A DNA stretch of 64,000 nucleotides, from contig CP154954.1 of assembly GCA_039621445.1 (NCBI GenBank), forward strand, positions 15,395,805 to 15,459,804, written 5' to 3'. This document shows positions 17,279 to 45,150 of the stretch, piece after piece. Below the pieces are notes generated by a model, which had not been told where the DNA came from, searched no databases, and saw only the letters and a program-made list of their open reading frames with translations. Origin of the DNA: Euglena gracilis. Its lineage: Eukaryota. The position numbers and the translations under genes are program-made. Numbering within the stretch: position 1 is the first letter of the stretch; each line of letters begins with the position of its first letter.

Positions 17279-17348
17279 GACACCTCGGGCCCGCTGCGGG
17301 CTCAACATTTTTCCCGGGCTCGCCAGCGGTTTGTTTTGCGGATTGTGA
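17279..17348 (+). mobile_element. Remnant left end of an older B-like DIRS element (B0)
   Basis: Starts GACACCTCGGGC. GCTCGCCAGCGG...GCGGATTGT matches the B left ITR (compare 17422-17447). Confidence 0.5.
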
Positions 17349-17536
17349 CCTGCTGGCAAACCGCAAAAGGAAGGAAGGGACACCTCGGGCTCCGCACTTT
17401 GCCCTTGTGAGGCCATGCCTTGCTCGCCGGCGGTGCTGTGCGGATTGTTCTGGTGCGCTTTGGTTAGGAGGTCCCGCTTTCGGACTCCCACGACAGAGGA
17501 AGGGGGAGGAAGGGACCAAGAGGGCGAAGCACAAGA

Positions 17537-17636
17537 AGATGGTGAGGTCCTGCTTTCCTTGCCGGCTGTTCTGTTCTGGTGTGTTTGTGCGTGCGCGGGG
17601 GGTGCCTCTTACTGCGCCTTTGTTGCCGGAGTTGGC
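17537..17636. repeat. Right ITR of element A (inverted partner 21974-22072)
   Basis: ~100-bp near-perfect inverted match: AGATGGTGAGG...GGAGTTGGC versus GCCAACTCC...CCTCACCATCT. Confidence 0.93.
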
Positions 17637-20600
17637 GATGATGAGGCCTCCTCCGACACCTTGGCGAAGCTGAACCGCCGTGGCCCCGCCCCCCTCCTCT
17701 CCCATGGTCGCTTGGTGGGGGCCCCCCCCCCTGATGGGGATGGTGGTCTCTTTCTGTGTTTCTGGGTGGGTGGTTGGGGCTGCTTGGTCGGGGGTCCCCT
17801 TTCTGGTTGGGATGTCTTTCGTTTTCTGCTGATTTTTTGGGTGGGAGGGTTGGGCTCACCATCTTCTTGTGCTTCGCCCTCTTGGTCCCTTCCTCCCCCT
17901 TCCTCTGTCGTGGGAGTCCGAGACCACTCGGGCTCCGCACTGCGAGATGGTGAGGTACTGTGCACCCCCCTTTGGGCCATAATATTTTGAATTTTTGATA
18001 CGACCCCAAGTCGCAAATAATGGGCTTGGAAGGCCCCAAAATTTTTCCACTGACCCAGCTGCTGGACTTCTTCCACTTGCAAACCAGCATTTTTCCACCA
18101 TAAGACCCCAGCCCCTCTGGTGCTGTGGGGTTTCCAATGGGTGGTGTCCACCCCCCCCTCTTGCAGAATTTCTTTGGTAAGGGAATTCACCCTTTCTGAT
18201 GTCAAAGGTCTTTTACCATCCAAAGACCATAACAAATTATTTTTGTGTCCAACCATGTGGGCTGTCCTTTCCACATATTCTTTCAATAAATGCCAGGGGC
18301 TGATGAGGGGGGTGTGTGGCAAATTCAAAATCTCCTCCCATCTTGGGAATTGCCACCCTTTCCTTTGCAATAAAATGAAAATTTTTTCTCACACGAAACT
18401 GATTTTTCGCTGGGTTCTGGCTAAATCAACCCCCCTGTGGAGGGCTAACAGCCTCCAACAGATGATGAGTCTGTTTCTGAGCTCTTTCACAGACAGGTCT
18501 GAGAGGGGTTTGGATTTCCTGATGATGTTTTCTAAGAAATCAGTGGGGTCCCAGAAATGGGCATACTTGCAGACATTGGAATTCCACTTCCTTTTCAATG
18601 GAGACAAAAGAGGGGAAAACCTCAATGACCCAAACCCTGGGAGTAATAAAACTGCTGCATATGCATTTCGTGCAGTGTTGAGGCTGTGGGCAGCCAAATC
18701 AAGGATGGCCTCGGCCATCTTGTGGACTGTGCAGTCCTGCAGGGGCACCCCTTTGTGCAACAATTGGCCCACCAATGTCCTGAAGGCTGAATCATATCTT
18801 TTGACATTTCCCAGATTTTTTATGTAAGTGTCGATACTGGACATCGAAACTTCCTGGGATTGTAATATTTGCCTGACACAATCAAGCAGGCCAATTTCCA
18901 CCTTGGGGGGGGGCATCTCCTCCCCCCAGCAGTTGGTGAATAGACCCCATTGGGGGGGTACCAACAAAACTTTGCTGCCTGGCTTTCTGATTGCCATTAA
19001 TTGGCGCCACCATGATGTTGAAGCCCAGTGGGGTACGATCAACAGACAAGTCAGGTCTGGGTTTACCATTAATCTCTGAACCCATTGGGGAATGATGCTC
19101 CAGGGGGGGTTTGCATAAACTGGGGGGAGGCCCCTCAAATCTGCCTTCAAGGCATCCACCAGCAAAGCCCCTTGGTGGGGGTATCGACAAACAAACTTGG
19201 GGAATTTTTTGTTGCTGGGTGTGCAAAACATGTCCACCTCTGGGGTGATGTCCTGTCTGAAAAATTTCAGGATTTGGTGAAAGATATGTAGGTTTAGGGT
19301 ATAATCCCCTGGGTCCTTTTGCTCCCTGGTCAGGGAGTCTGCCAATTGCTCTTTTGTGGGAACCCAAACCACCTGCAAATTGATTTGCTTTTCTTGGCAA
19401 TGATACAGCAGGGGTTTTAAAAATGCAATTTAGGTAGGGCTTTTTGCCTCCCCATTTTGTTAGATAACTTACAGCCACTTGGCTGTCCACATGAAGCATT
19501 ATGGTTTGTTTTGGTTTTGCCAGACTTTTTACTGTCTCCACTGCTGACATCAATTCTTTTTGGTTGATGTGAAGGATGTGCAGGTCCCTCCAAAAATCCT
19601 GCACTTTTTGGCCTGAGTTTTTGTCCAGCCCCCCCCACTGCCAGGTGCTGCTGTCTGAAAACAGATCCCGAGAGGCCTGGGATTGAAAGGCTCTGCCCAC
19701 ACCTGGCTGCAAAAACGCTTTTAACTCCACAATTTGATCTTTGACCCCTTGGGGAATGGTTAGGGTGTGGTCCCAACCCCACTTTGTGTGCAAATCCACC
19801 ATTTTGCAAAGTTGATCTGTCAGAATTCTGAGAAATGGCATGGAGACTAAATAGCTTCTGACTTGCCCCACAATAGAGCTGAGTTTTCTGCAGCTCATTT
19901 TTTGTGCTGTGAGCACTTTTCCCAGCTCCTTTCTTAAGGATTTTAATTTTTCCTGTGGGATTTCCAGCTGGCCCTTTTTCAAATTGACCCACTGGCCCAA
20001 ATGTTTTATTTCCTGTGTGGGTTCCAGACAGGATTTGGGGAGGTTTAATCTGAAACCTGCCAATAAAAGGTCCTGCTTTATTTCTGCCAAATGTTGGGCT
20101 GCAGTCTTTTTGCTGGGGGCTAACAGCAAAATGTCGTCTAGGTAGATGAAAACTACCTTTCCCTCCTTTCTCCACTTCCTTTCCCAGACTCTCATGAGAG
20201 TCATAAACTTTTGTGGCAGGCTGCTTATACCAAAACATGCAGCTTGAAACTGCCAAGTTTCCCCCCCCACTTGCATGCAGACATGTTTTTCCAGGCTGCT
20301 GTGCAGTTTTAGGTGAAAATAAGCATCTTTCAGATCTATTTTTCCACAGAACCATCCTTTTCTTAGGTATGGGAAAATGTTTCCCATGTGTTCCAGCCTG
20401 AACTTCTGGGGGGTGAAATAGTGATTTAACTGTCGACAATCTGAAATCAGTCTTTCCTTGGTCTTTTCCCCTTCTTTTTTGGAAATTATGAAGTAAGGGA
20501 CAAAATGTTTTGCCTCCTCTGGGGGGATTTGCCTGGTTGCCCCTGCACATTCGTATTCTCTCAGAATTTTTTGGGCAGTCATTACTTCCTGGGGAGTTTT

Positions 20601-21297
20601 GAAGGGAACTTTTAAGGACATTTGAGGGGGGAGGGGAAGATCTGCCATAACTCCCTCCCTTATCAGGTTTAATACCTCTCTGCTGGCTCCTGCCTTGACC
20701 CAATGGGGGATGCTGGTCTGCAGGGCTTTGTAAGGGGGTACCCCTGGGTGTAATGTGTCTGGGGACTCCACAGGCCCCATCACTGGGGTCACCCCTGGTT
20801 GCCCCATCACTGGGGCTGTAGCTGGCCCTGCCATAGGGCTTTCCAAAGACAGGCTTTCCCCCTGTTTGTGAATGATGGGGGAAGGTCTGTGCCTGAAATG
20901 AGGGGGTATATACAAGGCTGGGCTGATTATCTTCTGGGGGGGGCCTGTCTGAGCCAATCTTGGGCCTCCCCCCCAAGGGCTGATGTGGTGATTGCCTTGG
21001 CCACCATTTGCCTTCTGGCCTCCCCTGGCACTCAGGCCTGCTTGGCCACCATTTGCCTTCTGGCCTCCCTTGGCTCTCAGGCTTGCTTGGCCTCCATTGG
21101 CCTTTTCTCTGGGACTGTCTCTTCTCTGTCCCTCTTGATTTCCCATAAAGGCCACCATGGCCTGTTCTTGGCATTGGCTTGCCACTCCTGGGGGGTTTGT
21201 GTCTGAAATTGCTGGGGGGAAAGTTGGACACACCTTTCCCCAATGGGCTCTTTCCAGGTTGGGGTACTGGCTGCCATAGCCTGTCCCCTGGGCCCAC
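17609..21297 (-). CDS. Tyrosine recombinase ORF of element A (reconstructed; YR domain ~17990-18900; long N-terminal part overlaps RT)
   Basis: Catalytic motifs LALHRGVDL (R), HSTR, LGQW, FQAHY. ORFs 18389..19378 and 17609..18370 share a frame, split by one TGA. They join ORF 19417..21297 after removing two 1-bp insertions (~19420, ~18910). Confidence 0.85.
17855..17955. repeat. Internal complementary region (ICR) of element A
   Basis: Reverse complement of the outer right end (17480-17546) joined to the reverse complement of the outer left end (22062-22095). Junction ...GGGAGTCCGA|GACCACTCGG... at 17921/17922. Confidence 0.93.
18820..21233 (-). CDS. Reverse transcriptase - RNase H - adenine-methyltransferase-like polyprotein of element A (two 1-bp frameshifts)
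   Basis: RT: KIDLKDAYFH, CFG, FIYLDD. RNase H: FSDSS, HINQKEL, HVDSQVA, LADSLTR. MT: VDMFCT...VYANPPW. Predicted end PPPRWKLACLIVSGKYY...* resembles the B copies (PPPRWPLVCMISS). Confidence 0.92.
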
Positions 21298-21841
21298 TGC
21301 CCTCTTGATTAATGGCTTCCATAGCCTTGAATTTGGACCCCAGGTCCTTTTTGTTGATGGCTGCCATAGCCATGATAATTTGAATCCTTTGGATTTGTTG
21401 AAAGGCTGTCATAGCCTTTGTCTTGACCCCTGGAAGGGGGTGGACATAGAAAAGGGGGGTTGAGTCTGTTGGACCTGTGATGGTATTCCCCTTCTGTCTT
21501 CTCTTCCTGACCACAGTTGTCCATGGTCCATGGCCATTCTCATGTTGAGAGGGGGATTTGAAAATCTCAGAAGCCTTGGGGGGTGGGGGGGTTGCGATGG
21601 CCACGGACTGGCTAGTTGCTGCCGCCCCTCCAGCTTCTGCAGCTGCTGCTGTGACTCCACCTTCCCCAGCTTCAGCTGACTTCTTGAAAGTTCTTTGCAG
21701 TTCTTCTTGAGATTCAGAGTTTCTTTGAAATTCATTCTTCATGGAAATCCAGTTGTCGATATCTGTTGTGTTTCTTGTTCTTCTTTCTTGAATTTCTTCC
21801 AGTTCCAGTTGAATTCTTCCTGCAGGAAGTTGAAGTTCCAC
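21077..21841 (-). CDS. ORF1 / putative gag-like protein of element A
   Basis: First ORF after the left ITR, with a coiled-coil-like N-terminus. Motif (N/D)GHGPWxTVV is shared with B-family ORF1. Confidence 0.6.
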   Translation of the reverse strand: MELQLPAGRIQLELEEIQERRTRNTTDIDNWISMKNEFQRNSESQEELQRTFKKSAEAGEGGVTAAAAEAGGAAATSQSVAIATPPPPKASEIFKSPSQHENGHGPWTTVVRKRRQKGNTITGPTDSTPLFYVHPLPGVKTKAMTAFQQIQRIQIIMAMAAINKKDLGSKFKAMEAINQEGSGPRGQAMAASTPTWKEPIGERCVQLSPQQFQTQTPQEWQANAKNRPWWPLWEIKRDREETVPEKRPMEAKQA

Positions 21842-24800
21842 AGAAAGTTCGGTCCACCAGTTGGTAAGAGTATTGGTTCTCGGGAAGGTAGAACTCCTCG
21901 AAAAACGATTCCACTTGAACTCGTAGTAGTAAAACTCTTTCTCCTTGAGGTCGAAGGGCAGAAATAGGAATCAGCCAACTCCGGCAACAAAAAGCAGTAA
22001 GAAGCACCCCCCGCGCACGCACAAACACACCAGAACAGAACAGCCGGCAAGGAAAGCAGGACCTCACCATCTCGCAGTGCGGAGCCCGAGTGGTCAGTGC
22101 CTTTTTTTCGCCGGAGTTGGCTGATTCCTAATTTGCCCTTCAACACCCAGAAGACAGGAACTTCAAATACCTCACCAATTGAGAAAAGAAGAAGACAATC
22201 AATCCACTCAAATTATCAAGAAAGTCACGGTCGCGCAGAACTTCAAATCAAAAGTTGTTGATTTTTTCGAAAGAATTCAATGAAAGATGCAACTTCAAAG
22301 AAGCAAAGCCCTGGAGTACTTCAAGAGGGAGAAGCAGCAACAGCTGGACAACCTGAAGGCGCGGGTCAACTGTGGCGAGCCGTGGTTGCCCCTACCCGAA
22401 AAAGAAATTTCCCCCACAGAAAATTCCAGAACTCAAACCCTGCAAAGTGATGGCCACGGACCCTGGCAGACAGTGGTCGGAAGACCCTGAACGGGAAAGA
22501 AACAACGACCAGCAGGCCACTACGGCCACTGGAGCCAGGGCCATTGCGGCCAAAATTCTGCCAGTTCCACCAATACCTTGTTCAAGCTGGGCCATGGCGG
22601 CCACAATAGCAAGCTGGGCAATGGCGGCCACAATAGCAAGCTGGGCCATGGCGGCCAAAACAGCAATGGCCATGGCGGCCGATGGAACAAAGGCCAGGGT
22701 GGCCAACAATGCCAAGGCCAGGGTGACCAATTCCACAAACAGAGGCCCAGTGGCAGGGGCAGGACAGGTCAACAACACCCCAATCATTTCTTCATCTCAA
22801 ACCCCATCAGGGGTACAGGATGGGCCGCCAGTGGTCCCCCAAGATTTTCAATGGGCATGGAACCCAACATCCAAAAGAAGTTAATGGGGACTATCAAAAT
22901 TTTAAGAGTGGAGCCAACATCAAGAGGGCCAGGGGGCCAGATTTATCATCAACAACATCAACAATTTCAAGGCCTCTGGGGCCATCAATTATCAGAAGGG
23001 GAAAAACCCCAGAATCTAACAGGCTGTCCCCCAGCAGGGGGTTTCAATGTCCGGTGGCAGCCCCAGGAGGATGCCCCCAAAGGGGCAGTGGAGGACAAGG
23101 GGGCAACCCCCCCTCTACATTTTCTGTCAGTGCCCATGGCAGGGGCAAACCAAAACAAGCGGGAGACCCAAAAAGGGGCCCCTATGGTATGTCAATCGAC
23201 AACACCAATGACAAAGTGGAGGATCAGAGAACCTGTGAGAAGAGCATGCACCCCCCCCCCAGTCACCTTTGGAGAATGCTCAATCCCCAGGGGCACCAGC
23301 GGTGCAATGTCAAAAACCCCCCACCCAGCACCCAGAAAATCAGCTAGTTGGGAAAATACATTCCATGGAGGAGAATTGGGAGACACCCCTTGTACCAGAG
23401 ACTTCAAAAAAAGACTAAAATGGTGGACAAAAAATGCCTCCCCAGCAACATGTCAATTGAAAAAAAAATGTAATTCAACCACCCTGGGTGAATCCCCCAA
23501 AATTGTCCACCCACCCAAAACCCAGGGCCAACCTGGACATGAACCAGACAGAAAAAATTCTGCTGGATTACAAAAAAATGGGGTCAGTGAAATGAGTTTG
23601 GGATTCAGAAACCCAGTATTTGATCGCATGGTTTTTAATTTCAAAACCAGAAGGGGGAACAACCAAATGGATAATCATCAGCGACTGCAGAGAAAAAAAA
23701 AGCAGTTTCAAGTAAAACCTTTCAAGCTGGATGATATTTGGAAAAAGGCCACTGGGCAGCAAAAATAGACCGAAAGGATGCCTGTTTTCATATTCCAGTA
23801 AGTCCAGGCCTCAGGCCATTTTTAAGGCATCAGGTAGGGGGGCAGTCCTGGGAATTTCAAAGAGGCTGATTTGGGCTAAATGTAATGCCCCAAATTTTAA
23901 TGTCAGTGATGAAATCATTAGAAAAGCTGTGGAGAAAAAGGGGCATCCAGGTGTTTATTTACCTGGACGACATTCTGCTGGTGGCCCCCACCCAAATCAA
24001 TTTACAAAGTCACCTGAAAACAGTTGTCAAAGATTTGCTGGATTCTGGGTTCAAAATCAATGTGAAAAAGTCTACCCTGCAGCCCACCCAAGTGGTAACC
24101 CATCTGGTTTTTCAACTGAACTTCCAGGAAGGAAAACTACAGGTCCCCCCAGAAAGTCAAAAACATAAAAAAGGAGCTGGGAAAATTGTGAAAAAAGATT
24201 ACATGTCAAAAAGGCAAATGGCCGCCATTTTGAGACAAATAAGGTGCAAACTAATGGGCCTGCCCTTTTTAAGGGCTTTTACGGACACCCTGGCAAATTT
24301 TTTGGTGGCAAAGGCCACAGCCCCCTGGGTGGATCTTTACGCAAACCCCCCCTGGTCAATAATTCAACAATTTCTACCCAGGTTGAAAATTTTCCCCCAA
24401 ACCAAAGTTTTGATGGTCACCTCCTACTGGGATCCAGCCACCTGGTGGGCACAATTAATAAAAATGAAAGTTCCAGGGACCCCCGCCTGAAAATCACCCC
24501 CTACAGGGGCATGTTCACCAACTGCAGGGGGGAGCAAATGCCACCGCCCAGGTGGCCCCTGGTTTGCATGATTTCCTCCAGAAAATTGTGGAGGAGAAAC
24601 AAATTAAGGTTGAGACCATAAAAAAATGATTTTCTGGGAATAAACCCCAGCTTAAAACGTTATCAGAGTGCTTGTGCACTTCTGTGGGTAATTTTGGAAC
24701 ACATGGGCGTCCCCTCCCCCTGAAGCCACCAAAGACCAATTGGCTGACGCTTTAATACAATTATTACAATTTTCTAAGGCCCAAGCCCGTAATGCCTACA

Positions 24801-25913
24801 GTGCTATGCTTTTGATTCCTGGGTTTGGTGGGCTGAGATTCCACACCCCTACAAAAGGCTTTGGAACCAAAACGTGGAGAAGTACGGGACATTTTGGGAT
24901 CCCGTCCCAATCCTCCTGGGGCTGGCAAAGGCGTTCATGCCCACTGATATTTGTACATTGCGTACACAACTGATTTTTTGCTCACGAGTCCTCTGTTTAT
25001 ACTGATCCTCAGGCTTATCGCAAGTCAAACAAACCAGCAGTGTGTTGCGTAGGGCGCCCTACATCACGATTAAGCGTAAAGGACAGATATTCCATAAGTG
25101 GGAAATGGTTGTGTCCTTTCCCCAGTGTCCCCAAATAAGCCCATTTCACTTGATGATGTGCTATGTGGCTGCTACATGTTCAGTCTTCAGAACTGAGACC
25201 CCCCTTCTGATCTCATTAAAACCCCCCTTCAGTGCCATAAGTGCAGACACCGTTGCTTCCATCACAAAAGACTTTTTGGCCAAACGTAGGGTAACCCCCC
25301 AGGTGGGGGGCCCACAACACCAGGGGGGCAGGGGTTGGTTTACTCAAAAACTTGGGCGTTTCTGCCCAAGCAAGTTTGTGAAATTGGTCAGTTGAGGGGG
25401 GTGGAGGCTTTTACAGCCCACTACCAACGACTTGGTGCCCAAGGTGCCCTGGAAAATGCCCTGGCCCACCGAATTTCAGTGCACAAACTGGCCTCTCAAG
25501 GGCAAAGTGCGGAGCCCGAGGTGCCTCGTACTCCCTCGAGGACAACAGAAAAGGGAGGAAGGGAAACCGAGGGCGAAGCACAAAGACCTTGTGAGCCCAA
25601 CCCCCCCCCCCCACCCGCAAAAGAAAATTTGTGTTCAAAGGCCGTCGGTCAGAGAGTGGGGGCCAGGGGGGGAGAGGGGGGAGACACCCCCCAGGGGCAA
25701 GAAGCCACGTCGCCCAGTCGGAGCAGCATCGTCAGCCAACTCCAGCGAGGCAGCACTAAGCGGGACCTCCTAACCAAGCACACCAGAACAATCCAAACAA
25801 CACCGCCGGCGAGCAAGGCATGGTCTCACAAGGTCTTTGTGCTTCTCCCTCGGTGTCCCTTCCTCCCTTGTCGGTTTTCCTCGAAGGAGCACGAGACACC
25901 CACGGCGAAGCAC

Positions 25914-30178: not shown

Positions 30179-30197
30179 GACTCCCACGGCGAAGCAC

Positions 30198-33100: not shown

Positions 33101-34479
33101 GGGGAGCAAATGCCACCGCCCAGGTGGCCCCTGGTTTGCATGATTTCCTCCAGAAAATTTTGGAGGGGAAACAAATTCAGGTTGAGACAACCAAAAAAAA
33201 ACGATTATCTGGGGATAAACCCCAGCTTAAAACGTTATCAGAGTGCTTGTGCACTTCTGTGGGTAATTTTGGAACACATGGGCGTGCCCCCCCCCTGAAG
33301 CCACCAAAGACCAAGTGGCTGACGCTTTAATACAATTATTACAATTTTCTAATGCCCAAGCCCGTAATGCCTACAGTGCTATGCTTTTGATTCCTGGGTT
33401 TGGTGGGCTGAGATTCCACACTCTGTTAACCCCCTACAAGAGGCTTTGGAACCAAAACGTGGAGAAGTACGGGACATTTTGGGATCCCGTCCCAATCCTC
33501 CTGGGGCTGGCAAAGGCGTTCATGCCCACTGATATTTGTACATTGCGTACACAACTGACTTTTTGCTCACGAGTCCTCTGTTTATACCGATCCTCAGGCT
33601 TATCGCAAGTCAAACGAACCACCAGTGTGTTGGGTAGGGCGCCCTACATCACGATTTAGTGTAAAGGACAGATATTCCATAAGTGGGAAAGGGTTGTGTC
33701 CGTTCCCCAGTGTCCCCAAATAAACCCATTTCACTTGATGATGTGCTATGTGGCTGCTACATGTTCAGTCTTCAGACCTGAGGGCCCCCTTCTGATCTCA
33801 TTAAAACCCCCCTTCAGTGCCATAAGTGCAGACACCGTTACTTCCATCACAAAAGACTTTTTGGCCAAACGTAGGGTAACCCCCCAGGTGGGGGGCCCAC
33901 AACACCAGGGGGGCAGGGGTTGGTTTACTCAAAAACTTGGGCGTTTCTGCCCAATCAAGTTTGTGAAATTGGTCAGTTGAGGGGGGTGGAGGCTTTTACA
34001 GCCCATTAACGACGACTTGGTGCCCAAGGTGCCCTGGAAAATGCCCTGGCCCACCGAATTTCAGTGCACAAACTGGCCTCTCAAGGGCAAAGTGCGGAGC
34101 CCGAGGTGTCTCGTACTCCCTCGAGGACAACAGACAAGGGAGGAAGGGAAACCGAGGGCGAAGCACAAAGACCTTGTGAGCCCAACCCCCCGCCCCCACC
34201 CGTAAAAGAAAATTTGTGTTCAAAAGCCCTCGGTCAGAGAGTGGGGGCCAGGGGGGTAGAGGGTGGGGACACCCCCCAGGGGCAAGAAGCCACGTCGCCC
34301 AGTCGGAGCAGCATCGTCAGCCAACTCCAGCGATGCAGCACTAAGCGGGACCTCCTAACCAAGCACACCAGAACAATCCAAACAACACCGCCGGCGAGCA
34401 AGGCATGGTCTCACAAGGACTTTGTGCTTCGCCCTCGGTGTCCCTTCCTCCCTTGTCGGTTTTCCTCGAAGGAGCACGA
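30198..34479 (+). mobile_element. DIRS1-like element B3 (degenerate)
   Basis: Starts 4284 bp after B2. Same ~290-bp deletion near 31727. ICR junction at 34096-34119. Confidence 0.95.
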
Positions 34480-34498
34480 GACTCCCACGGCGAAGCAC

Positions 34499-37400
34499 GA
34501 CACCTCGGGCTCCGCACTCTCCCCTTGTGAGGCCATGCCTTGCTCGCCAGCGGTGCTGTGTGGATTGTTCTGGTGCGCTTTGGTTAGGAGGTCCCGCTTA
34601 GTGCCTTTTTTTCCGCCGGAGTTGGCTGATTCATAATTTGCCCTTCAACACCCAGAAGACAGGAACTTCAAATACCTCACCACTTGAGAAAAGAAGAAGA
34701 CAATCAATCCACTCAAATTATCGAGAAAGTCACGGTCGCGCAGAACTTCAAATCAAAAGTTGTTGATTTTTTCGAAAGAATTCAATGAAAGATGCCACTT
34801 CAAAGAAGCGATGCCCTGGAGTACTTCAAGAGGGAGCAGTAGCAGCAGCTGGACAACCTGAAGGCGCGGGTCAACTGTGGAGAACCGTGATGTCCCCTAC
34901 CCGAAAAAGAAATTTCCCCCACAGAAATTTTCAGAATTCAAACCCTGCAAAGTGATGGCCACGGACCCTGGCAGACAGTGGTCGGAAGACCCTGAACGGG
35001 AAAGAAACAACAACCAGCAGGCCACTACGGCCATTGGAGCCAGGGCCATTGCGGCCAACATTCTGCCAGTTACACAAATACCTTGTTCAAGCTGGGCCAT
35101 GGCGGCCACAATAGCAAGCTGGGAAATGGCGGCCACAATAGCAAGCTGGGCCATGGCGGCCAAAACAGCAGTGGCCATGGCGGCCGATGGAACAAAGGCC
35201 AGGGTTGCCAACAATGCCAAGGCCAGGTTGGCCAATTCCACAAACAGAGGCCCAGTGGCAGGGGCAGGACAGGTCAACAACACCCCAATCATTTCTTCGT
35301 CTCAAACCCCATCAGGGGTACAGGATGGGCCGCCAGTGGTCCCCCAAGATTTTCAATGGGCATGGCACCCAACATCCAAAATAAGTTAATGGGGACTATC
35401 AAAATTTTAAGAGATGAGCCAACATCAAGAGGGCCAGGGGGCCAGATTTATCATCAACAACATCAACAATTTCAAGGCCTCTTGGGCCATCAATTATCAG
35501 AAGGGGAAAAACCCCAGAATCTAACAGGCTGTCCCCCAGCAGGGGTTTCAATGTACGGTGGCAGCCTCAGGAGGATGCCCCCAAAGGGGCAGTGGAGGAC
35601 AAGGGGGCAACCCCCCCCTCAACACTCTCTGTCAAAGGCCATGGCAGGGGCAAACCAAGAACAAGCGGCAGACCCAAAAAGGGACCCCTATGGTATGTCA
35701 ATCGACAACACCAATGACAAAGTGGAGGATCAGAGAACCTGTGAGAAGAGCATGCCCCCCCCCAGCCACCTTTAGAGAATGCTCAATCCCCAGGGGCACC
35801 AGCGGTGCAATGTCAAAAACCCCCCACCCAGCACCCAGAAAATCAGCTAGTTGGGAAAATACATTCCATGGTGGAAAATGGGGAGACACCCCTTTTACCA
35901 GAGACTTCAAAAAAAGACTAAAATGGTGGACAAAAAAATGCCTCCCCAGCAACATGTCAATTGAAACAAAAATGTAATTCAACCACCCTGGGTGAATCCC
36001 CCAAAATTGTCCACCCACCCAAAACCCAGGGCCAACCTGGACATGAACCAGGCAGAAAACATTCTGCTGGGATACGAAAAAACTGGGTCAATGAAATGAG
36101 TTTGGGATTCAGAAACCCAGTATTTGATCCCATGGTTTTTTATTTCAAAATCAGAAGGAGGAACAACCAAATGGATAATCATCAGCGACTGAAGAGAAAA
36201 AAAGCAGTTTCAAGTAAAACCTTTCAAGCTGGATGATATTTGGAAAAAGGCCACTGGGCAGCAAAAATTGACCGAAAGGATGCCTGTTTTCATATTCCAG
36301 TAAGTCCAGGCCTCAGGCCATTTTGAAGGCATCGGGTAGGGGGGCAGTCCTGGGAATTTCAAAGAGACTGATTTGGGCTAAATGTAATGCCCCAAATTTT
36401 AATGTCAGTGATGAAATCATTCGAAAAGCTGTAGAGAAAAAGGGGCATCCAGGTGTTTATTTACCTGGAGGACATTTTGCTGGTGGCCCCCACCCAAATG
36501 AATTTACAAAGTCACCTGAAAACATGTTGTCACATATTTGTTGGATTCTGGGTTCAAAATCAATGTGAAAAAGGCTACCCTGCAGCCCACCCAAGTGGTA
36601 ACCCATCTGGTTTTTCAACTGAACTTCCAGGAAGGAAAACTACAGGTCCCCCCAGAAAGTCAAAACGATAAAAAAGGAGCTGGGAAAAATTGTGAAAAAA
36701 GATTACATGTCAAAAAGGCAATTGGCTGCCATTTTGAGCCAAATAAGGTGCAACCTAATGGCCCTGCCCTTTTTAAGGGCTTTTACGGACACCCTGGCAC
36801 ATTTTTTGGTGGCAAAGGCCACAGCCCCCTGGGACTCAAAACACCCCATTTCCCAGGAAATCAAAGCCCAATTAAGGGAAATAAAAATTCTGCCGGACAC
36901 CTGGGGGGCAGACCCTTCCCCCAAAATGCAAGCAGAGTGTTGCACTCAGAGGGCAGCACCCATGCCTGGGGGGGGGGGGGGGCTAGACATCCACACAGCA
37001 GAAATTGTGCAGGAATTTTGGAGAAAAAACTCCATTTTGCACATGAATGTAAAGGAGCTCAGTGCAGCAATCAGCACTGTGAAAAGTTTGAGCAAACCTG
37101 GGGAACCCGTTTCCTTGTCAGTGGACAACCAGGTAATTTACTTTTACCTAACAAAAGGTGGGGGCAGAAAGGACCCCTTCAACAAAATGCTGAGACCATT
37201 TTCCAAGTGGCACATTGAGCACAAAGTAAACCTCCAAGTCAACTGGGTACCTTCAAAAGAATGCCTAGCAGACCCCATCAGCAGATGGGAAATGGACAGG
37301 GGGGATTATTCTTCAGAACCCCAACTTTTTCAACGGCTCAAACAACAGTTGAAAATTTTCAAAAGTCTGGAAACAGATTTATTTGCCTCCCGAAGGCAAC

Positions 37401-39059
37401 AAAAAACTGCCAAATTTTGTGGCCAGGTGGCCCCACTGGGATGCCACAGCAGTAAATACATTACAATGTCCACTGGACAACAAGGGAAATCTTTATGCAA
37501 ACCCTCCCTGGTCAATAATTCAACAATTTCTACCCAGGTTGAAGATTTTCGCCCAAACCAAAGCTTTGATGGTCACCTCCAACTGGGATCCAGCCACCTG
37601 GTGGGCACAATTAATAAAAATGAAAGTTCCAGGGACCCCCCGCCTGAAAATCACCCCCTACAGGGGCATGTTCACCAACTGCAGGGGGGAGCAAATGCCA
37701 CCGCCCAGGTGGCCCCTGGTTTGCATGATTTCCTCCAGAAAATTTTGGAGGGGAAACAAATTCAGGTTGAGACCATTAACGATTTTCTGGGGATAAACCC
37801 CAGCTTAAAACGTTATCAGAGTGCTTGTGCACTTCTGTGGGTAATTTTGGAACACATGGGCGTGCCCCCCCCCCTGAAGCCACCACAGACCAAGTGTCTG
37901 ACGCTTTAATACAATTATTACAATTTTCTAAGGCCCAAGCCCGTAATGCCTACAGTGCTATGCTTTTGATTCCTGGGTTTGGTGGGCTGAGATTCCACAC
38001 CCTGTTAACCCCCAACAAGAGGCTTTGGAACCAAAACGTGGAGAAGTACGGGACATTTTGGGATCCCGTCCCAATCCTCCTGGGGCTGGCAAAGGCGTTC
38101 ATGCCCACTGATATTTGTACATTGCGTACACAACTGATTTTTTGCTCACGAGTCCTCTGTTTATACCGATCCTCAGGCTTATCGCAAGTCTAACAAACCA
38201 CCAGTGTGTTGGGTAGGGCGCCCTACATCACGATTAAGCGTAAAGGACAGATATTCCATAAGTGGGAAATGGTTGTGTCCTTTCCCCAGTGTCCCCAAAT
38301 AAGCCCATTTCACTTGATGATGTGCTATGTGGCTGCTACATGTTCAGTCGTCAGACCTGAGGGCCCCCTTCTGATCTCATTAAAACCCCCCTTCAGTGTC
38401 ATAAGTGCAGACACCATTGCTTCCATCACAAAAGACTTTTTGGCCAAACATAGTGTAACCCCCCAGGTGGGGGGCCCACAACACCAGGGGGGCAGGGGTT
38501 GGTTTACTCAAAAACTTGGGCGTTTCTGCCCAAGCAAGTTTGTGAAATTGGTCAGTTGAGGGGGGTGGAGGCTTTTACAGCCCATTAACAACAACTTGGT
38601 GCCCAAGGTGCCCTGGAAAATGCCCTGGCCCACCGAATTTCACTGCACAAACTGGCCTCTCAAGATCAAAGTGCGGAGCCCGAGGTGTCTCGTACTCCTT
38701 CGAGGACAACAGACAAGGGAGGAAGGGAAACCGAGGGCGAAGCACAAAGACCTTGTGAGCCCGACCCCCCGCCACCACCCGTAAAAGAAAATTTGTGTTC
38801 AAAAGCCCTCGGTCAGAGAGTGGGGGCCAGTGGTGGGAGAGGGGGGAGACACCACCAAGGGGCAAGTAGCCACGTCGCCCAGTTGGAGCAGCATCGTCAG
38901 CCAACTCCGGCGAGGCAGCACTAAGCGGGACGTCCTAACCAAGCGCACCAGAACAATCCAAACAACACCGCCGGCGAGCAAGGCATGGTCTCACAAGGTC
39001 TTTGTGCTTCACCCTCGGTGTCCCTTCCTCCCTTGTCGGTTTTCCTCGAAGGAGTACGA
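34499..39059 (+). mobile_element. DIRS1-like element B4 (degenerate, longest uninterrupted copy)
   Basis: Same termini. RT motif mutated to YLED. RH/MT in 36692..37909 and 37383..37796. YR fragments 37825-38700. Confidence 0.95.
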
Positions 39060-39078
39060 GACACCGACGGCGAAGCAC

Positions 39079-42000
39079 GACACCTCGGGCTCCGCACTTT
39101 GCCCTTGTGAGGCCATGCCTTGCTCACCAGCGGTGTGGTTTGGATTGTTTTGCTGCGTTGGGTTAGGAGGTCCCGCCTAGTGCCATTTTTCACCGGAGTT
39201 GGATAATTCTTAATTTTGCCTTCGACACCAAGAAGAAAGGAACGCCAAATACCTTATCAATTGGAGGAAGAAGAAGTCAATCAAACAATTCAAATTATCC
39301 TGGTAAAGACGCTGGTGCAGAACCTCAACGCAGAAATTGTTGAAGCATCTGAAAGATTTCAATAAAAAATGCAATTTCCAAGACGAACAGCGATGGAGAA
39401 TTTCAAGAGGGAGCAGCAGACAACTTGACAACCTGACAACCGGACAACCTGACGGCGCGGTTCCAGTGTGGTCAGCCGTGGCTGCCCCTTCCACAAAAGA
39501 AATTTCCCCAAAAGAACTTCCACAACCCCCCCCAAAGTGATGGCAACAGACCCTGGCAGACAGTTGGCAGAAGACCCCGCAAGGGGCAGAAGCAACAATC
39601 AGCAGGCCACTACGGCCATTGCAACCAGGGGCATGGGGGCCAACATTCCACAACACAATGCACATCAAAGCGGGGCTATGGTAGCCAGAACCGCACAGGC
39701 CGTTAAGGCAACAAAGGCCATGGCGGCACAAAACGGCCATGAACGCGTGTGCATTTACAAATGTCGCTGGAACAAAGGCCAAGGTGGCCACCAGCACCAA
39801 GACCCCACAGCACATGGCAGGGGCAGACAAGGCCTTACACAACATCCCCACCACTTCTCAATCACACCACCCCTCAGGGGTCAGGGTGGGGGACCCAAGA
39901 ACCCCTCAAGATTTCAAATGGGCATGGCGACCCAGAAACAAATCAGGCCATTGGGGCCTTTCAATTTATCATCCAGGACATTGGGGCCAGAAATATCAAC
40001 AAGCAGATCAACAATCACAACAACACCACAGGAGAGGTCCCTCACAGGCCCCCCAGAAGCTAAGGGACGGCCCTGCAAGGGATTTAAATTAAAATTGGCA
40101 GCCCCCTGTCCAGCCCCAGAAGGAATATGGCCCCCCAACTGCCAGCAAGGAGGAACAGGAAGGGGGAGGCTCCCCACCAGCATTTTTTCCAATTCAATCA
40201 ACAAGGGGGGACCCACAGAGGCCCCCTATGGTACGGCTACCAACCCCATCAACATCAAGCCAGATAGGCAAAGCAGGGGCAGTAAGTCCTATGGTATGGA
40301 AACAACCCAAGAACAAGATCCTCCAGAGAGCGTGTGAGCGGAGAGGGAGAGGCTGCATGCAAATCCTCCCAGGAACACTTACTTTTTCAGAGGGCTCAAG
40401 CCCTAGGGGCTTTAGGGGCTGTGAAATGTCCAACACCCCCCACCCAGCACCCAGAAAATCATCTAGTTGGGAAAATACATTCCATGGAGGAAAAATGGGG
40501 AGACACCCCTTGTACCAGAGCCTTCAAAAAAAGACTAAAATGGTGGACAAAAAATGCCCCCCCAGCAACATGTCGAATGATAAAAAAGAGTGGAATTCAA
40601 CCACCCCGGGTAAATCCCCCCAAATTGTCCACCCACCCAAAACCGGGATCCAACTTGGACCTGAAACAGGCAGAAAAAATTCTGCTGGATTGCGAAAAAA
40701 TTGGGTCAGTGAAACGAGTTTGAGATTTAGAAACCCAGCATTTGATCGCATGGTTTTTAATTTCAAAACCAGAAGGGGGAACAACCAAATGGAGAATCAT
40801 CAGCGACTGCAGAGAAATAAACAAGCAGTTTCAGTTAAAACCTTTCAAGCTGGATCATATCCAAAACATTTTTCAAGTTTTGGGAAAGGCCACTGGGCAG
40901 CAAAAATATGACCGAAAGGATGCCTGTTATCATATTCCAGTAAGTCCTTGCCTCAGGCCATTTTTAAGGCATCAGGTAGGGGACAGATCTGGGAATTTCA
41001 AACAGGCTGCTTTGGGCTAAATGTAATGCCCCAAAATTTCATGTCAGTAATGAAAACATTCGAACAGGAGTAGAGAAAAAGGCGCATCCAGGTGTTTATT
41101 TACCTGGACGACATTTTGCTGGTGGCCCCCACACGAGTTTTTTACAAAATAACCCGAACACAGCTGTCAAAGATTTTCTGAATTGAGGGTTCAAAATCAA
41201 CCTGAAAAAGTCCACCCTGCAGCCCACCCAAGTGGTAACCCATCTGGGTTTTCAACTAAACTTCCAGGAAGGAAAGTTACACGTACCCTCCGGAAAGTCA
41301 AAACCATAAAAAATGAGCTTGGAAAACTTGTGAAAAAAGATTACATGTCAAAAAGGCAGTTGGCTGCCATTTTGTGTCAAATAAGATGCAAACTAATAGC
41401 CCTGCCCGTTTTAATGGCTTTTATGGACACCCTGGCAATTTTTAGATGGCAAAGTCCACAGCCACCTGGGACTCAAAACACCCCATTTCCCAGGAAATCA
41501 AGTCCCAATTAAGGGAAATAATAAATTCTGCTGGACACCTGGGGGGCGGACCTTTCCCCCAAAATGCAACCAGAGAGTTCCACTCAGACAGCATCAGCCA
41601 TACCAGGGGGGAGGCGGGGCTGGACATCATCACAGGAGAAATTGTGCAGGAAATTTGGAGAGAAAAACTCCATTTTGCACATGAATGTAAAGGAGCTCAG
41701 TGCAGCAATCAGCACTGTGAAAAGTTTGAGCAAACCTGGGGCAACAGTTTCTTTGTCAGTGGACAACCAGGTCATTTACTATTACCTGACAATATGACAA
41801 AAATGGGGAGCAGAAAAGACCCATTCAACAAAAAGCTAAGACCGTTCTTCCAATGGTGCATCACAAAAACAGGTAAACCTCCTGGTCAGCTGCGTTCCTT
41901 CAAAAGAATGCCCCCATCAGCAGATTGGAAATGGACAGGGGGGATTACTCCCTGGACCCCCAGATTTTTCACTGGCTAAGACAGCATTTCAAGAATCTCA

Positions 42001-44519
42001 ATCACTTGCAAACAGATTTATTTGCCTCCACAGGCAACAAAAAAACTGCCCAATTTCGTGGCCAGATGGCCCCACTGGGAGGCCACAGCAGTAAGCGCAC
42101 TACAATGTCCACTGGACAACATGGGGGATCTTTGTGGAAAACCCCCCTGCTCAATAGTTCAAAATTTCTGCCCAGGTTGGAAATGTTTCCCCAGACCAAA
42201 GTTTTGATGGTCACCCCCTACTGGGAGTCAGCCAAATGGTGGCCCTAATCAATAAAGATGAAAGTTCCAGGGACCACCAGCCTGAAAATCACCACCTACA
42301 GGGGTAGGTTCACCAATTGCATGGGGGAACAAATGCCACCCCAAGATTGGCAGCATGTTTTTGCATGACATGCTGAGGAAAATTTTGGAGGAGAAAAAAA
42401 TTCAGGTGCAAACCATTGACGATTTCCTGGGGAGAAAGCACAGTTTAAAACGTTGTGAGAGTGCTTTTGCACTTCTGTGGGAAATTTTGGAACACATGGG
42501 CGTGCCCCCTCCCTGAAGCCACCACAGACCAGGTGGCTGAAGCATTAATACAATTATTCCAATTTTATAAGTCCCAAGGTCGTAATGCATACGGTGCTAT
42601 GCTTTTGATTCCTGGGTTTGGTGGACAAAGATTCCACACCCTGTTAACCCCTTACAAGAGCCTTTGGAACCAACGTGTGGAGAAGCATGGGGCATTTTTG
42701 GATCCCGTCCCAATCCTCCTGTGTGGGCGGCCCGGTGCCCTGCAGCCAGAAAAACCAAATTTCAGGTTCAGAGCCACAAATTAGGAGCGGAGCCTCCTAA
42801 TTCAAGGGGGAAATCACACAATTTCACACAGGCCGCAACCAGCCTGAACACAATGACTCAGAAAGCCACAAGCATTTGAATTGGTGCTGTGTATCAATAC
42901 TATCACTTTGTGGGGGGGGGACAATTTTGCCAAAATGGCCATTGTGAGGGAGGGGACACTTTGGGGGGGGGCGCATTTTGTCCCAGAGAAAGTGACCACT
43001 TTCGTGGGGGAACAAATTTGCCAAAAAATTTTGGCCACTCTGGGGGGGCACTTTGAAGGGGGGGTGAGGGTGTTTTTTTGTCCCAAATAGCCCAGAGGGT
43101 GGTTCCCCAAAAATATCACCATTCAAGATTAGTGGGTGGGTGCAGCGCCCAGAGCATTTCAATTAACGTCACAAAGTGCACCAGAAAAAATGGAGGCAAA
43201 ATGGGGTAGCAAAAGAAGAATACGATGTGAATATTTTGTCATCTTTCACATATGTCCCCCATGTTTAACGGTAGTGTTACCACTATTTCGAAATGATTCT
43301 AGTTCGGTACACCACAGACGGCGGCCAAAATCTGCCAGGCGGTCACACATTCTGATTCCGAGGTTTCCGGCCCTCCAGGTCTGTGCAGCGGATCCTAATT
43401 CAGCTTCGGTTTGTCCAAAAAAATCTCTCGTCAGTCTGCCGTCCGTCGTCGAGGTTGAGAAACACAGACTTTGACCAAAGCCATGTTGCTTTATAAACAC
43501 AGCCTTAAATAACTGCGACTTAAACACAGACTCTGACCTGAGTCTGCGTTTCGAAACGCAGACTCAGGTCAGAGTCTGCGTTTAAGACGCAGTTCTTGAT
43601 ATAATGCAGGTCCTCAGACTTGGCACAGATTAAACGAACCACCATTGTGTTGGGCACCCTACACAAAAATTAATTGTAAAGGCCAGAAGTGTCACACGTG
43701 GGAGAGAGTGGTGTTAATTCCCCCATGTCCAGAAATAAGCGCCTTTCATTTAATGATGTCTTATGTGACTGCCACACGTTCAGTCGTCAGACCTGGGGGC
43801 CCCTTCTGATTTCGTTAAAACCCCCCTTCAGGGCTGTGGGGGCAGATACCGTTGCTTCTATCACAATAGGATTTTTGGCCAGGCATGTGGTAACCACCCA
43901 GGTGGGGGGCCCACTCCACAAGAGGGGCGGGTTTGGTTTACTCAAAAAATTGGGCCTTTCTGTGCAAGAAGTTTGTGAAATTGTGGAGGGGGGTGGAGGC
44001 TTTTACAGCCCTCAATCAAAGACTTGGTGTTCAAGGTGCCCTGGAAAATGCCCTGGCCCCCCTAATTTTAGTGCAAAATCTGGCCTCACAAGGGCAAAGT
44101 GCGGAGCCCGTGGTGTCTCGTACTCCCTTGAGGCAGACCGACAAAGGAGGAATGGAAACCGAGGACGAAGAACAAATACCTTGTTAGCCCGACACCCCCA
44201 CCCGAAAAAAAATGTCTTCAAATGCACTCGGTCAGAAAACGGGGGCCAGGGGGGGCAGAGGGGGGGGGGACTCCCCACAAGGGGCAAGAAGCCACGTCGC
44301 CAACTCGGAGCAGAATCGTCAGCCATCTCCGGCGAGGCAGCACTAAGGGGCACCTCCTATCACAACGCAGCAAACAATTCGAACAACACCGCCGGCGAGC
44401 AAGGCATGGCCTCACAAGGTCTTCGTGCTTCGCCCTCGGTGTCCCTTTGTCCCTTGTTGGTCTGCCCCTCGGTGTCCCTTCCTCCCTTGTTGGTCTGCCT
44501 CGAGGGACAGGGAGTACGA
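39079..44519 (+). mobile_element. DIRS1-like element B5 (diverged subfamily; interrupted ~42722-43590)
   Basis: Left end GACACCTCGGGCTCC, right end GGGAGTACGA, YLDD at ~41101, ICR ~44080-44185. ORF1 region clearly diverged from B1-B4. Confidence 0.9.
42722..43594. mobile_element. Composite insertion into the YR region of B5, starting TGTGGGCGG and ending in an 84-bp palindrome
   Basis: B5 homology stops at CCAATCCTCCTG and resumes near 43600. First 9 nt equal the start of the 49721 insert. Confidence 0.6.
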
Positions 44520-44538
44520 AAAGGCCTTGTGGATCCCT

Positions 44539-45150
44539 GACACCTCAGGCTCCGCGCTTTGTCCTTGCGACACATGTCCCGTCTTAGTGCCTATTGCCGC
44601 CGGAGTTGGTGGATTAATAATTTGCCATTCGACACCGGATAAAGGAGTCAAGCTTCAAACGAAGAAGGTTCAAGAAGAGCCACAAATTCCATTTCAATTT
44701 CCAAATGAGCACGGACCAGACTAATGCCGCCTAACAAGCCAATCAACTAATTGCCAATTTGGGTCTCACTGGACGATCACATTATAAAGAATGGTTCAAT
44801 ATGCAATACCGAGGCCAAATACCACAATGGTGACCCAGAAACCAGAACACAATATTGCCAGAACCTGGGAAGATGGAATCAAAGCCGAGGAGGACTTCAC
44901 CACCACAGGGGCCATGGTGGCCAATTCTGCAAGCAGCTACTCCCGGGAACGGGCAGAAACGTTCTGTCAAACGCACCAAATTTCCATAACGCCACACGCC
45001 CGACCAAGGGGAAGAGGGGGGGGGCACTAGAGCCCCCTAGATTTCAGCTGGAGCTGGATACAAACGTCAATAAATGTATTCCCCGGCCATGGAGGCCGAA
45101 TTTATATCCAAGGCCCTGGAGGCCATGCTCAAGTGAAAGGCCAGAAAGGC
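44539..45150 (+). mobile_element. 5' remnant of a further diverged DIRS relative (B6); right limit uncertain
   Basis: GACACCTCAGGCTCCGCGCTTTGTCCTTG followed by CTTAGTGCC...GCCGGAGTTGG. CCCCCTAGATTTCA (~45033) resembles B CCCCAAGATTTTCA. Confidence 0.65.

What the first reader, a model, noticed from the sequence alone, without database searches (positions are those of the whole stretch)
17355..44560. Self-targeting DIRS array: distinct insertions exactly 19 bp apart in one DIRS-terminus-like target
Seen: the gap between B4 and B5 (39060-39078, GACACCGACGGCGAAGCAC) and the gap between B5 and B6 (44520-44538, AAAGGCCTTGTGGATCCCT) are both 19 nt but differ in sequence. Deleting the elements gives a continuous AAACCGCAAAAGGAAGGAAGG|GACACCGACGGCGAAGCAC|AAAGGCCTTGTGG. 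This aligns with the family's ICR / reverse-complemented right end (AAACCGACAAGGGAGGAAGGGACACCGAGGGCGAAGCACAAAGACCTTGTG). So three diverged subfamilies (B1-4 progenitor, B5, B6) entered one ~40-bp target in the same orientation, and decay increases downstream. Known: Dictyostelium DIRS-1 inserts into its own copies. Inference: each new element is placed at a fixed offset upstream of a resident left end, for example by YR bound to the resident TCGGGCTCC arm, giving a polarised, age-ordered array. I know of no fixed-distance rule described for DIRS. Only two independent spacers support it here.
Basis: partly seen in the sequence, partly recalled or inferred. Interest (0 to 1): 0.85.

Follow-up and report, generated by a model that had tools for sequence, protein, structure and literature searches.

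The report
DIRS retrotransposons stacked in one terminus
Several copies of a DIRS-type jumping gene (one that inserts with a tyrosine recombinase) have landed side by side inside the end of an older copy, which is the known homing habit of these elements; the two equal 19-base gaps are real, but the evidence does not show that the element measures a fixed distance.

Summary
Both 19-nt gaps sit exactly where stated. The element ends that define them are confirmed by each copy's internal complementary region (ICR) and by contigs from four public runs. The upstream flank plus the two gaps read as one continuous sequence, 48 of 59 identical to the reverse complement of the family's right terminus (P about 1e-19).

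The locus is a nested cluster of DIRS1-like retrotransposons:
- B1-B4 are tandem duplicates of one insertion and share one spacer.
- B5 is older.
- B6 is only a left-end fragment.
- A young, intact inverted element (A) sits inside B1.

The fixed-offset rule is not supported.
- Site 1 is where the target carries the same 6 bases (GACACC) as the spacer of the element's own 9-6-9 recombinase-type core site.
- Site 2 is hit again at another locus, in the opposite orientation and with no resident left end beside it.
- Three other DIRS-into-DIRS insertions ignore the rule.
- Only the second 19 (site 2 to site 3) stays unexplained. Three equally spaced points arise by chance with P about 0.01-0.04.

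No genome was held, so the decisive gap-length census could not be run.

Verdict: an ordinary self-homing DIRS nest with an unproven numerical curiosity.

The parts
17279..17356 (+). Z: remnant of an older left ITR. It starts with the family's left-end motif. My inference is that it is the outermost host of the nest.
   Evidence: Left-end motif hit with 2 mismatches at 17279. Alignment to the B2 left ITR.
17358..17378 (+). First piece of the target. It resembles the reverse complement of a right extension (rE). Homology may start near 17343. I infer it is the right terminus of an older inverted element, Y.
   Evidence: 16/21 identical to the rc right end of B2. Alignments.
17379..17479 (+). 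B1, 5' part (left ITR), cut off by element A.
   Evidence: 97% identical to B3 positions 1-101. Junction read.
17480..22095 (-). Element A: a 4616-bp DIRS1-like element of another subfamily, inverted, with long open frames. It has its own ITRs, ICR (about 17855-17950) and 34-nt right extension. It is the youngest element here.
   Evidence: Pfam: RVT_1 4e-14; Dam-like 6.3e-4 and Phage_integrase 2.6e-5, both below their cut-offs. HSTR motif in the YR frame. Conserved ITR 0 mismatches of 69.
22096..25894 (+). B1, 3' part.
   Evidence: 96-98% identical to B3.
25895..25913 (+). Spacer 1, copy between B1 and B2.
25914..30178 (+). B2.
   Evidence: 97.6% identical to B3 over 4288 columns.
30179..30197 (+). 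Spacer 1, copy between B2 and B3.
30198..34479 (+). B3.
34480..34498 (+). Spacer 1, copy between B3 and B4.
34499..39059 (+). B4. It keeps a 276-nt segment that B2 and B3 lack. ICR junction at 38689|38690.
39060..39078 (+). Spacer 1, original copy. It is target positions 1-19 of the ITR-like part, and its first 6 nt equal the element's crossover spacer.
   Evidence: 18/19 identical to the rc right ITR of B2. 6/6 overlap identity.
39079..44519 (+). B5: an older, 5441-bp copy, 73-87% identical to B1-B4. ICR junction at 44117|44118. Its right end carries an internal duplication of about 37 nt.
44520..44538 (+). Spacer 2, target positions 20-38.
   Evidence: 14/19 identical to the rc right ITR of B2. 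Covered at single-copy depth by one contig in each of 4 runs (table 3, place 44533).
44539..44678 (+). B6: left-end fragment. ITR positions 1-32 are followed by the post-ITR leader, and about 58 nt of ITR interior are missing. No recognisable coding part follows.

Best explanation
This is a nest of DIRS1-like tyrosine-recombinase retrotransposons, built by the self-homing that is already known for DIRS elements.

Inferred history:
- An old element Z took an inverted element Y into its left ITR.
- The outer 60-95 nt of Y's right terminus (right extension plus the start of the ITR) then received three separate insertions in the same orientation, at ITR positions 0, +19 and +38.
- B6 went in at +38; its age is unknown.
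- B5 went in at +19.
- A progenitor of B1-B4 went in at 0, later than B5.
- Unequal exchange between the left ends of the progenitor and B5, and then between progenitor copies, multiplied the unit of element plus 19-nt spacer into B1-B4.
- Finally the young element A entered B1's left ITR in inverted orientation.

How each site is explained:
- Position 0 is a pseudo-attachment site. The element's circle junction, read from its ICR, is a recombinase-type core of two 9-bp inverted arms around a 6-bp spacer. The target carries the same 6 bp at position 0, so this insertion looks like ordinary site-specific recombination within an identical crossover region.
- Position +19 is a reusable spot inside DIRS termini that does not depend on a neighbouring left end.
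- The equality of the second gap (+19 to +38) is most likely incidental.

Shown: the anatomy, the ends, the continuity of the target, the relative ages, and the reuse of site 2. Inferred: Y and Z, the exchange mechanism, and the role of the 6-bp identity.
For: - DIRS identity: RT, Dam-like MT and YR frames in A, and homologous frames in B1-B5. ITRs, ICRs and a 37-nt right extension are present.
- The target is terminus-like: 48/59 identical, P 1.6e-19.
- Ends are confirmed by 265-288 contigs per run with unrelated upstream letters and by 186 contigs behind the right end in X4.
- Core site: 9-6-9 with arm dyad identity 6-8 of 9 in all 6 elements. The site 1 target matches the spacer 6/6, while site 2 and A's site match only 2/6.
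- Site 2 is reused elsewhere. The joint 39059->44425 appears in 4 of 4 runs and is absent from the window. There, a right end abuts the same phosphodiester of a right ITR in the other orientation.
- B1-B4 are duplicates: one spacer in four variants, 96-98% identity, and a deletion shared by B2 and B3.
- Ages from the conserved ITR: A 0/69, B1-B4 6/78, B5 11/78 mismatches.
- Published context: preference of DIRS-1 for pre-existing DIRS-1, and the model of recombination at a short identical junction sequence. I read passages of PMC7192593 and PMC3266345.
Against: - Two equal gaps remain a nominally unlikely coincidence, 0.011-0.039, and I have no sequence reason for site 3.
- Sites 2 and 3 share no crossover identity with the element (2/6). 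The published model of an identical short sequence therefore explains only one of the three insertions.
- Reuse of site 2 rests on short contigs (22-28 nt on the shorter side, 1-2 contigs per run). These could all come from one other locus.
- Read laying showed only 15 of 1438 joints, so how often any site is used in the genome is unknown.
- Y and Z are inferred from weak alignments.
- B6's right end and the continuation of the target beyond it were not found.
Confidence: 0.6

Rival explanations
1. A recombinase bound to the arm of a resident left end places each new element exactly 19 bp upstream, building a polarised, age-ordered array: B6, then B5, then the B1-B4 progenitor.
For: - There are two independent gaps of exactly 19 nt with different sequences.
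- The chance of equal spacing is 0.011-0.039.
- The upstream progenitor is younger than B5.
- All three elements share one orientation.
Against: - The model must treat as coincidence that its first placement falls exactly on the target's 6/6 match to the crossover spacer, at the boundary between rE and ITR.
- Site 2 is used elsewhere in the opposite orientation without a resident left end.
- A's insertion and the joint 38925->39079 are DIRS-into-DIRS events with no left end 19 nt downstream.
- A 19-bp offset would make the 9-6-9 core of the new site overlap the core at the resident end by 5 bp. This is my geometric inference.
- Two of the five resident left ends in the window (Z and A) have nothing 19 bp upstream.
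- n = 2.
Confidence: 0.12
2. A phasing that belongs to the target. Positions 0, +19 and +38 are the two ends and the midpoint of the roughly 38-nt part of the ITR that is complementary to the ICR. The integration machinery recognises this architecture in resident termini, so the spacing is real but is set by the terminus and not by a neighbouring element.
For: - Homology between the right ICR and the right terminus runs from the element end to about ITR position 37.
- Site 1 is the boundary between rE and ITR, and site 3 is at 38|39.
- Site 2 is reused at another locus in either orientation.
- The outer 23 nt of the ITR form a 'divergent ITR' module that is conserved between subfamilies A and B. 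This kind of module is described in PMC3266345 (passages).
Against: - Position +19 lies inside the 23-nt divergent part, not at its boundary.
- Single-strand folds of four termini are no better than shuffles, with z from -1.04 to +1.42.
- Site 3 has a single example.
- No mechanism is known.
Confidence: 0.2
3. The gaps are not insertion scars. They would instead come from misassembly of a very abundant repeat, or from template switching or recombination during cDNA completion that added ICR-like letters to the ends.
For: - The family is extremely abundant: 62,048-87,739 contigs were laid per run, which makes assembly hard.
- Both spacers resemble successive parts of the ICR (45-46/59).
Against: - The ICR joins right and left end with no spacer, so it cannot template a gap.
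- The upstream flank and the two gaps continue one another in register.
- The junction of gap 2 with B6 is covered at single-copy depth in 4 of 4 runs.
- The units differ by private substitutions and indels.
Confidence: 0.04

Closest known systems
DIRS-1 of Dictyostelium discoideum and its clusters of nested copies
   Same: A YR retrotransposon with inverted terminal repeats and an ICR that is complementary to both ends. It inserts preferentially into pre-existing copies and leaves no target-site duplication (PMC7192593, passages). The window shows the same anatomy and the same habit.
   Different: Here three insertions fall within 40 bp of one resident terminus, in one orientation and with equal spacing. 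In searches I found no report of position-resolved insertion sites within DIRS termini. Subscription papers (Cappello 1985; Poulter and Goodwin 2005) and supplements were not seen.
DIRS1-like terminus architecture and the 3-bp circular-junction model (Piednoel et al. 2011, PMC3266345; passages read)
   Same: - A right extension (37 nt in B, 34 nt in A).
- A divergent outer ITR of 23 nt, 13-15/23 identical between left and right.
- A conserved inner ITR.
- A short box (the CCTTGTGAG region) shared by both ITRs and both ICRs.
- Insertion at position 0 fits recombination at a sequence identical to the junction.
   Different: - The elements begin with GAC and end with CGA, and the ICR holds both without a 3-bp overlap.
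- The identity at site 1 is 6 bp, not 3.
- B5 and A show no junction identity with their targets (2/6).
Core sites of tyrosine recombinases (loxP, FRT, dif) and heterology-tolerant integrases (Tn916, CTnDOT). These are named from my own knowledge, not from a call.
   Same: The circle junction reads as two 9-bp inverted arms around a 6-bp asymmetric spacer. Insertions without spacer identity look like blunt insertions, as expected if the heteroduplex is resolved by replication.
   Different: No binding or cleavage data exist for any DIRS recombinase. PMC7192593 states that its specificity has not been tested. The arms of the three targets match poorly (1-5 of 9).
Elements that integrate at a measured distance from a bound landmark (TRE5-A and Ty3 at tRNA genes, Tn7 at attTn7).
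   Same: A fixed offset from a protein-bound landmark would give equal gaps.
   Different: Those elements use DDE or target-primed integration with dedicated targeting proteins. Here the evidence for a measured distance is two gaps, one of which has another explanation.

Membership tests
DIRS1-like retrotransposons (order DIRS) | Reverse transcriptase | tested here: met
   RVT_1 at 4e-14 and 53.2 bits (cut-off 29.6) in A's 808-aa frame. Homologous frames are present in B1-B5. There are 54 relatives, the best at 72% identity.
DIRS1-like retrotransposons (order DIRS) | Tyrosine recombinase instead of a DDE integrase | tested here: met
   Phage_integrase at 2.6e-5 and 24.5 bits, just under the 27.1 cut-off. 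The frame carries an HSTR motif and a later HY. HSTR is the motif named in PMC3266345.
DIRS1-like retrotransposons (order DIRS) | Dam-like methyltransferase domain, which separates DIRS1-like and PAT from Ngaro and VIPER | tested here: inconclusive
   PF05869 at 6.3e-4 and 19.9 bits, below the 28.1 cut-off. Several database relatives carry PF05869.
DIRS1-like retrotransposons (order DIRS) | Inverted terminal repeats with a conserved inner part and a divergent outer part | tested here: met
   The left ITR aligns with the rc right ITR over 105-131 columns in all 6 elements. The outer 23 nt are 13-15/23 identical, and the inner part has 0-11 mismatches.
DIRS1-like retrotransposons (order DIRS) | ICR complementary to the left end and to the right end plus right extension | tested here: met
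   Five B ICRs and A's ICR each read as rc(left end) directly followed by rc(right end).
DIRS1-like retrotransposons (order DIRS) | No target-site duplication | tested here: met
   The flanks of the B1-B4 progenitor, B5 and A differ on the two sides, apart from the 6-bp crossover identity at site 1.
DIRS1-like retrotransposons (order DIRS) | Same trinucleotide at both ends, overlapped once in the ICR (3-bp circular junction) | tested here: not met
   The elements start with GAC and end with CGA, and the ICR contains both in full. Contigs diverge right after 39059 and right before 39079. PMC3266345 itself reports elements with unequal end trinucleotides in the Table 3 rows I saw, so this does not exclude membership.
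   No genome is held. The metagenome pattern scan gave 10 matches, none with ITR sequence around it. Read laying lists only 15 of 1438 joints. Within the window there are 2 independent gaps, both 19 nt.
   A's insertion and the joints 38925->39079 and 39059->44425 lie in resident termini with no left end 19 nt downstream.

The most novel reading that the evidence does not exclude
DIRS integration into resident copies is not diffuse homing. It uses a few discrete, phased positions in the outer terminus (0, +19, +38 from the start of the ITR). These would be set either by a recombinase complex on a neighbouring or resident end (a true 19-bp ruler) or by the architecture of the ICR-complementary segment. 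Repeated use would build polarised, age-ordered head-to-tail arrays. This would be the first positional rule for any eukaryotic tyrosine-recombinase retrotransposon, and it would give a defined substrate for in vitro work.
Probability: 0.2. Interest if true: 0.7.

Novelty: new member of a known kind. Interest (0 to 1): 0.38.

Why it matters
The target specificity of DIRS recombinases has not been tested experimentally (PMC7192593, passage). Their clustering shapes centromeres and pericentromeres in some organisms, according to the abstracts of PMC7192593 and PMC3950715 seen in the listing and passages of PMC6387122.

This locus offers three things:
- a readable 9-6-9 candidate core site;
- one insertion with a perfect 6-bp crossover match;
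- one terminus position hit at two loci.

If a census confirmed discrete sites, they would be concrete substrates for a first biochemical assay. As it stands, the array is an ordinary example of DIRS self-homing followed by tandem duplication.

Tried and rejected
- Whole-genome census: impossible, because no genome is held.
- Metagenome scan for right end, 1-31 nt, left end. It gave 10 loci, two pairs of which are identical, with gaps of 3-28 nt and one of 19. GC is 0.53-0.73. None shows ITR or extension sequence around the pattern by eye. I take them as chance dyads, so they are uninformative.
- Earlier findings of this scan: nothing for this genome or sequence. Two unrelated Naegleria notes came up.
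- Read laying. It confirmed the ends and gave two informative joints, but the tables are cut: 15 of 1438 joints, 24 of about 11,770 loose ends, and 12 of 800 inter-joint letter rows. No gap-length distribution can be drawn. Whether contigs bridge gap 1 was not shown.
- Search for the rest of B6 and for the continuation of the target downstream. blastn with ITR, ICR and end probes found nothing outside 17279-44678. tblastn and tblastx gave only weak, low-complexity matches up to about 45200.
- Single-strand DNA folds of three right-terminus strands and one left terminus: z from -1.04 to +1.42, so no structure marks the sites.
- Arm similarity of the targets to the 9-bp arms: 1-5 of 9, so there is no evidence for arm recognition.
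- Template switching on the ICR as the source of the gaps: rejected, because the ICR has no spacer.
- Hybrid origin of B2-B4 from B5 and the progenitor: rejected, because their 5' parts are 73-77% identical to B5 but 96-98% identical to B1.
- Literature: searches found no fixed-distance rule or head-to-tail DIRS arrays. Supplements and subscription papers were not seen.
Full report
**What is there**

Region 17279-44678 is a nest of DIRS1-like retrotransposons.

Element A (17480-22095, minus strand, 4616 bp) has long open frames:
- a reverse transcriptase (RVT_1, 4e-14);
- a Dam-like domain (6.3e-4, below the cut-off);
- a tyrosine recombinase (Phage_integrase 2.6e-5, just below the cut-off, with an HSTR motif).

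Its proteins find degenerate homologues in five plus-strand copies, B1 to B5, and nothing outside 17481-44208.

Every copy has inverted terminal repeats and a right extension (37 nt in B, 34 nt in A). [quoted passage not shown] That fixes the ends independently of the gaps.

Contigs of four public runs laid on 38800-44800 give a second confirmation:
- 265-288 contigs per run carry unrelated letters immediately before 39079 (consensus agreement 0.31-0.32).
- In X4, 186 contigs carry unrelated letters immediately behind 39059 (0.33).
- The family is very abundant: 62,048-87,739 contigs were laid per run.
- Many flanks are unrelated to the laid stretch, so self-targeting is not exclusive.

**The array**

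- B1 is 17379-17479 plus 22096-25894, split by A.
- B2, B3 and B4 follow, and then B5.
- The junctions B1|B2, B2|B3, B3|B4 and B4|B5 all carry one 19-nt spacer in slightly different versions.
- B1-B4 are 96-98% identical to each other but only 73-87% identical to B5.
- B2 and B3 share a 276-nt deletion that B1 and B4 lack. B1 has a private 647-nt deletion.

B1-B4 therefore descend from one insertion. The unit of element plus spacer was multiplied by unequal exchange. That exchange was most simply seeded in the nearly identical first 47 nt of the left ITRs of the progenitor and B5, which is my inference.

B6 is only a left end. ITR positions 1-32 and the leader behind the ITR are recognisable, and about 58 nt of ITR interior are missing. 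No coding homology follows. One contig at single-copy depth covers the junction of gap 2 with B6 in each of the 4 runs, so the junction is not an assembly artefact.

**The target**

Flank 17358-17378, gap 1 and gap 2 continue one another in register. Together they match the reverse complement of the right terminus of B2 at 48 of 59 positions (P 1.6e-19; parts 16/21, 18/19 and 14/19). They match the ICRs of B1-B4 at 45-46 of 59.

Upstream lies a left-ITR-like remnant (Z, from 17279). I read the target as the right terminus of an older inverted element, Y, that had entered Z's left ITR, just as A later entered B1's left ITR. This is inferred from weak alignments.

In terminus coordinates the three insertion points are as follows:
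- Position 0: the boundary between the right extension and the ITR.
- Position +19.
- Position +38: about where complementarity to the ICR ends.

**Ages**

The conserved parts of the left and right ITR are thought to be regenerated from one template at transposition (passages of PMC7192593 and PMC3266345). They differ at 0 of 69 positions in A, 6 of 78 in each of B1-B4, and 11 of 78 in B5.

B6 cannot be dated. One correct ordering out of two possibilities is weak support.

**Is there a 19-bp ruler?**

Four results argue against it.

1. The circle junction, read from the ICRs, has the form of a tyrosine-recombinase core site: two 9-bp inverted arms (6-8 of 9 complementary in all 6 elements) around a 6-bp spacer. 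At position 0 the target carries the identical 6 bp (6/6). At position +19 and at A's site the match is only 2/6. The progenitor's insertion is therefore explained by ordinary recombination at a pseudo-attachment site. This is an extension of the published model of recombination at an identical short junction sequence (PMC3266345). A ruler model must call this exact coincidence an accident.
2. Among the 15 joints that read laying showed, one (39059->44425, in 4 of 4 runs and absent from the window) joins a right end to a right ITR at the very phosphodiester of site 2. The inserted element there lies in the opposite relative orientation. The 19 nt beyond lead to the natural boundary between ITR and extension, not to a resident left end. 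The distance between sites 1 and 2 is therefore a property of the terminus.
3. A's insertion, at the inner edge of B1's left ITR, and the joint 38925->39079, a left end at the inner edge of a right ITR, are further DIRS-into-DIRS events with no left end 19 nt downstream.
4. A 19-bp offset would make the 24-bp core of the new site overlap the core at the resident end by 5 bp. This is my geometric inference.

What remains unexplained is the second 19, from site 2 to site 3. Three points in a target of 40-137 positions are equally spaced by chance with probability 0.039-0.011, and the pattern was noticed post hoc.

**A possible intrinsic phasing**

Positions 0, +19 and +38 are the ends and the midpoint of the ICR-complementary ITR segment, so a phasing set by the target itself cannot be excluded.
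- For it: the outer 23 nt form a divergent-ITR module that is conserved between subfamilies A and B. Such a module is described by Piednoel et al..
- Against it: +19 lies inside that module, not at its edge. Single-strand folds of four termini are no better than shuffles.

**What could not be done**

The decisive census of gap lengths needs the genome, which is not held. A pattern scan of metagenome contigs returned 10 matches with no ITR context. The read laying tables are truncated.

The literature searches and the passages I read show no fixed-distance rule. They also show no position-resolved map of DIRS insertions within DIRS termini. Subscription papers and supplements were not seen.

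**Host**

The organism is not identified. The nearest named relative of A's RT is a EukProt record named EG_transcript_6737, at 48% identity. The other relatives are unnamed metagenome proteins, the best at 72% identity.

**Verdict**

- The self-targeting, the independent insertions, the duplication of B1-B4 and the relative age are supported.
- The fixed-offset mechanism is not supported.
- The array is best seen as a well-preserved example of DIRS self-homing plus tandem duplication.
- Two details are worth a census: a 6-bp crossover identity at one site, and a terminus position hit at two loci.

Noticed in passing
window 17480-22095 (minus strand): Element A looks intact and recent. It has stop-free frames of 297, 808, 346 and 259 aa for gag, RT, MT and YR. 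The conserved parts of its two ITRs are identical (0 of 69). It could be an active master copy.
   Followed up: partly
window 3832-5897: A satellite of about 2 kb with a 47-bp period and 84-89% identity between copies, seen as a ladder of self-matches offset by multiples of 47.
   Followed up: no
window 39113/39122 joined to 44405/44411 (joints; other loci of the genome): In all 4 runs, contigs join the first 35-49 nt of a left ITR directly to the mirror part of a right ITR, through 4-5 nt of shared letters. One of these joints makes a perfect palindrome around CCATGG. They look like internally deleted mini-DIRS or foldback derivatives.
   Followed up: no
window 44430-44519: B5's right terminus carries a tandem duplication of about 37 nt that covers the extension and the start of the ITR. 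B1-B4 and B5's own ICR lack it.
   Followed up: no
window 43508-43597 and the 42722-43610 region of B5: B5 contains about 0.9 kb with no counterpart in B1-B4, including a 90-nt inverted repeat at 93% identity. Depth in the runs is lowest here (bins 42820-43422), so it is probably a foreign insert.
   Followed up: no
window 52230-54989 (minus strand): A 919-aa open frame with a reverse transcriptase domain (RVT_1, 1.8e-13). It has no similarity to the DIRS proteins of element A, so it is another retroelement of a different kind. The 830-aa frame at 61311-63803 (minus strand) has no Pfam match.
   Followed up: partly
window 22096 and 17479 (A's target), compared with 39078|44520 (site 2): In the inserted element's orientation, the two insertions without crossover identity have similar flanks: GCAC or GCACT before the element, and AAAG or AAG after it. 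With only two cases, a weak target preference is possible.
   Followed up: partly
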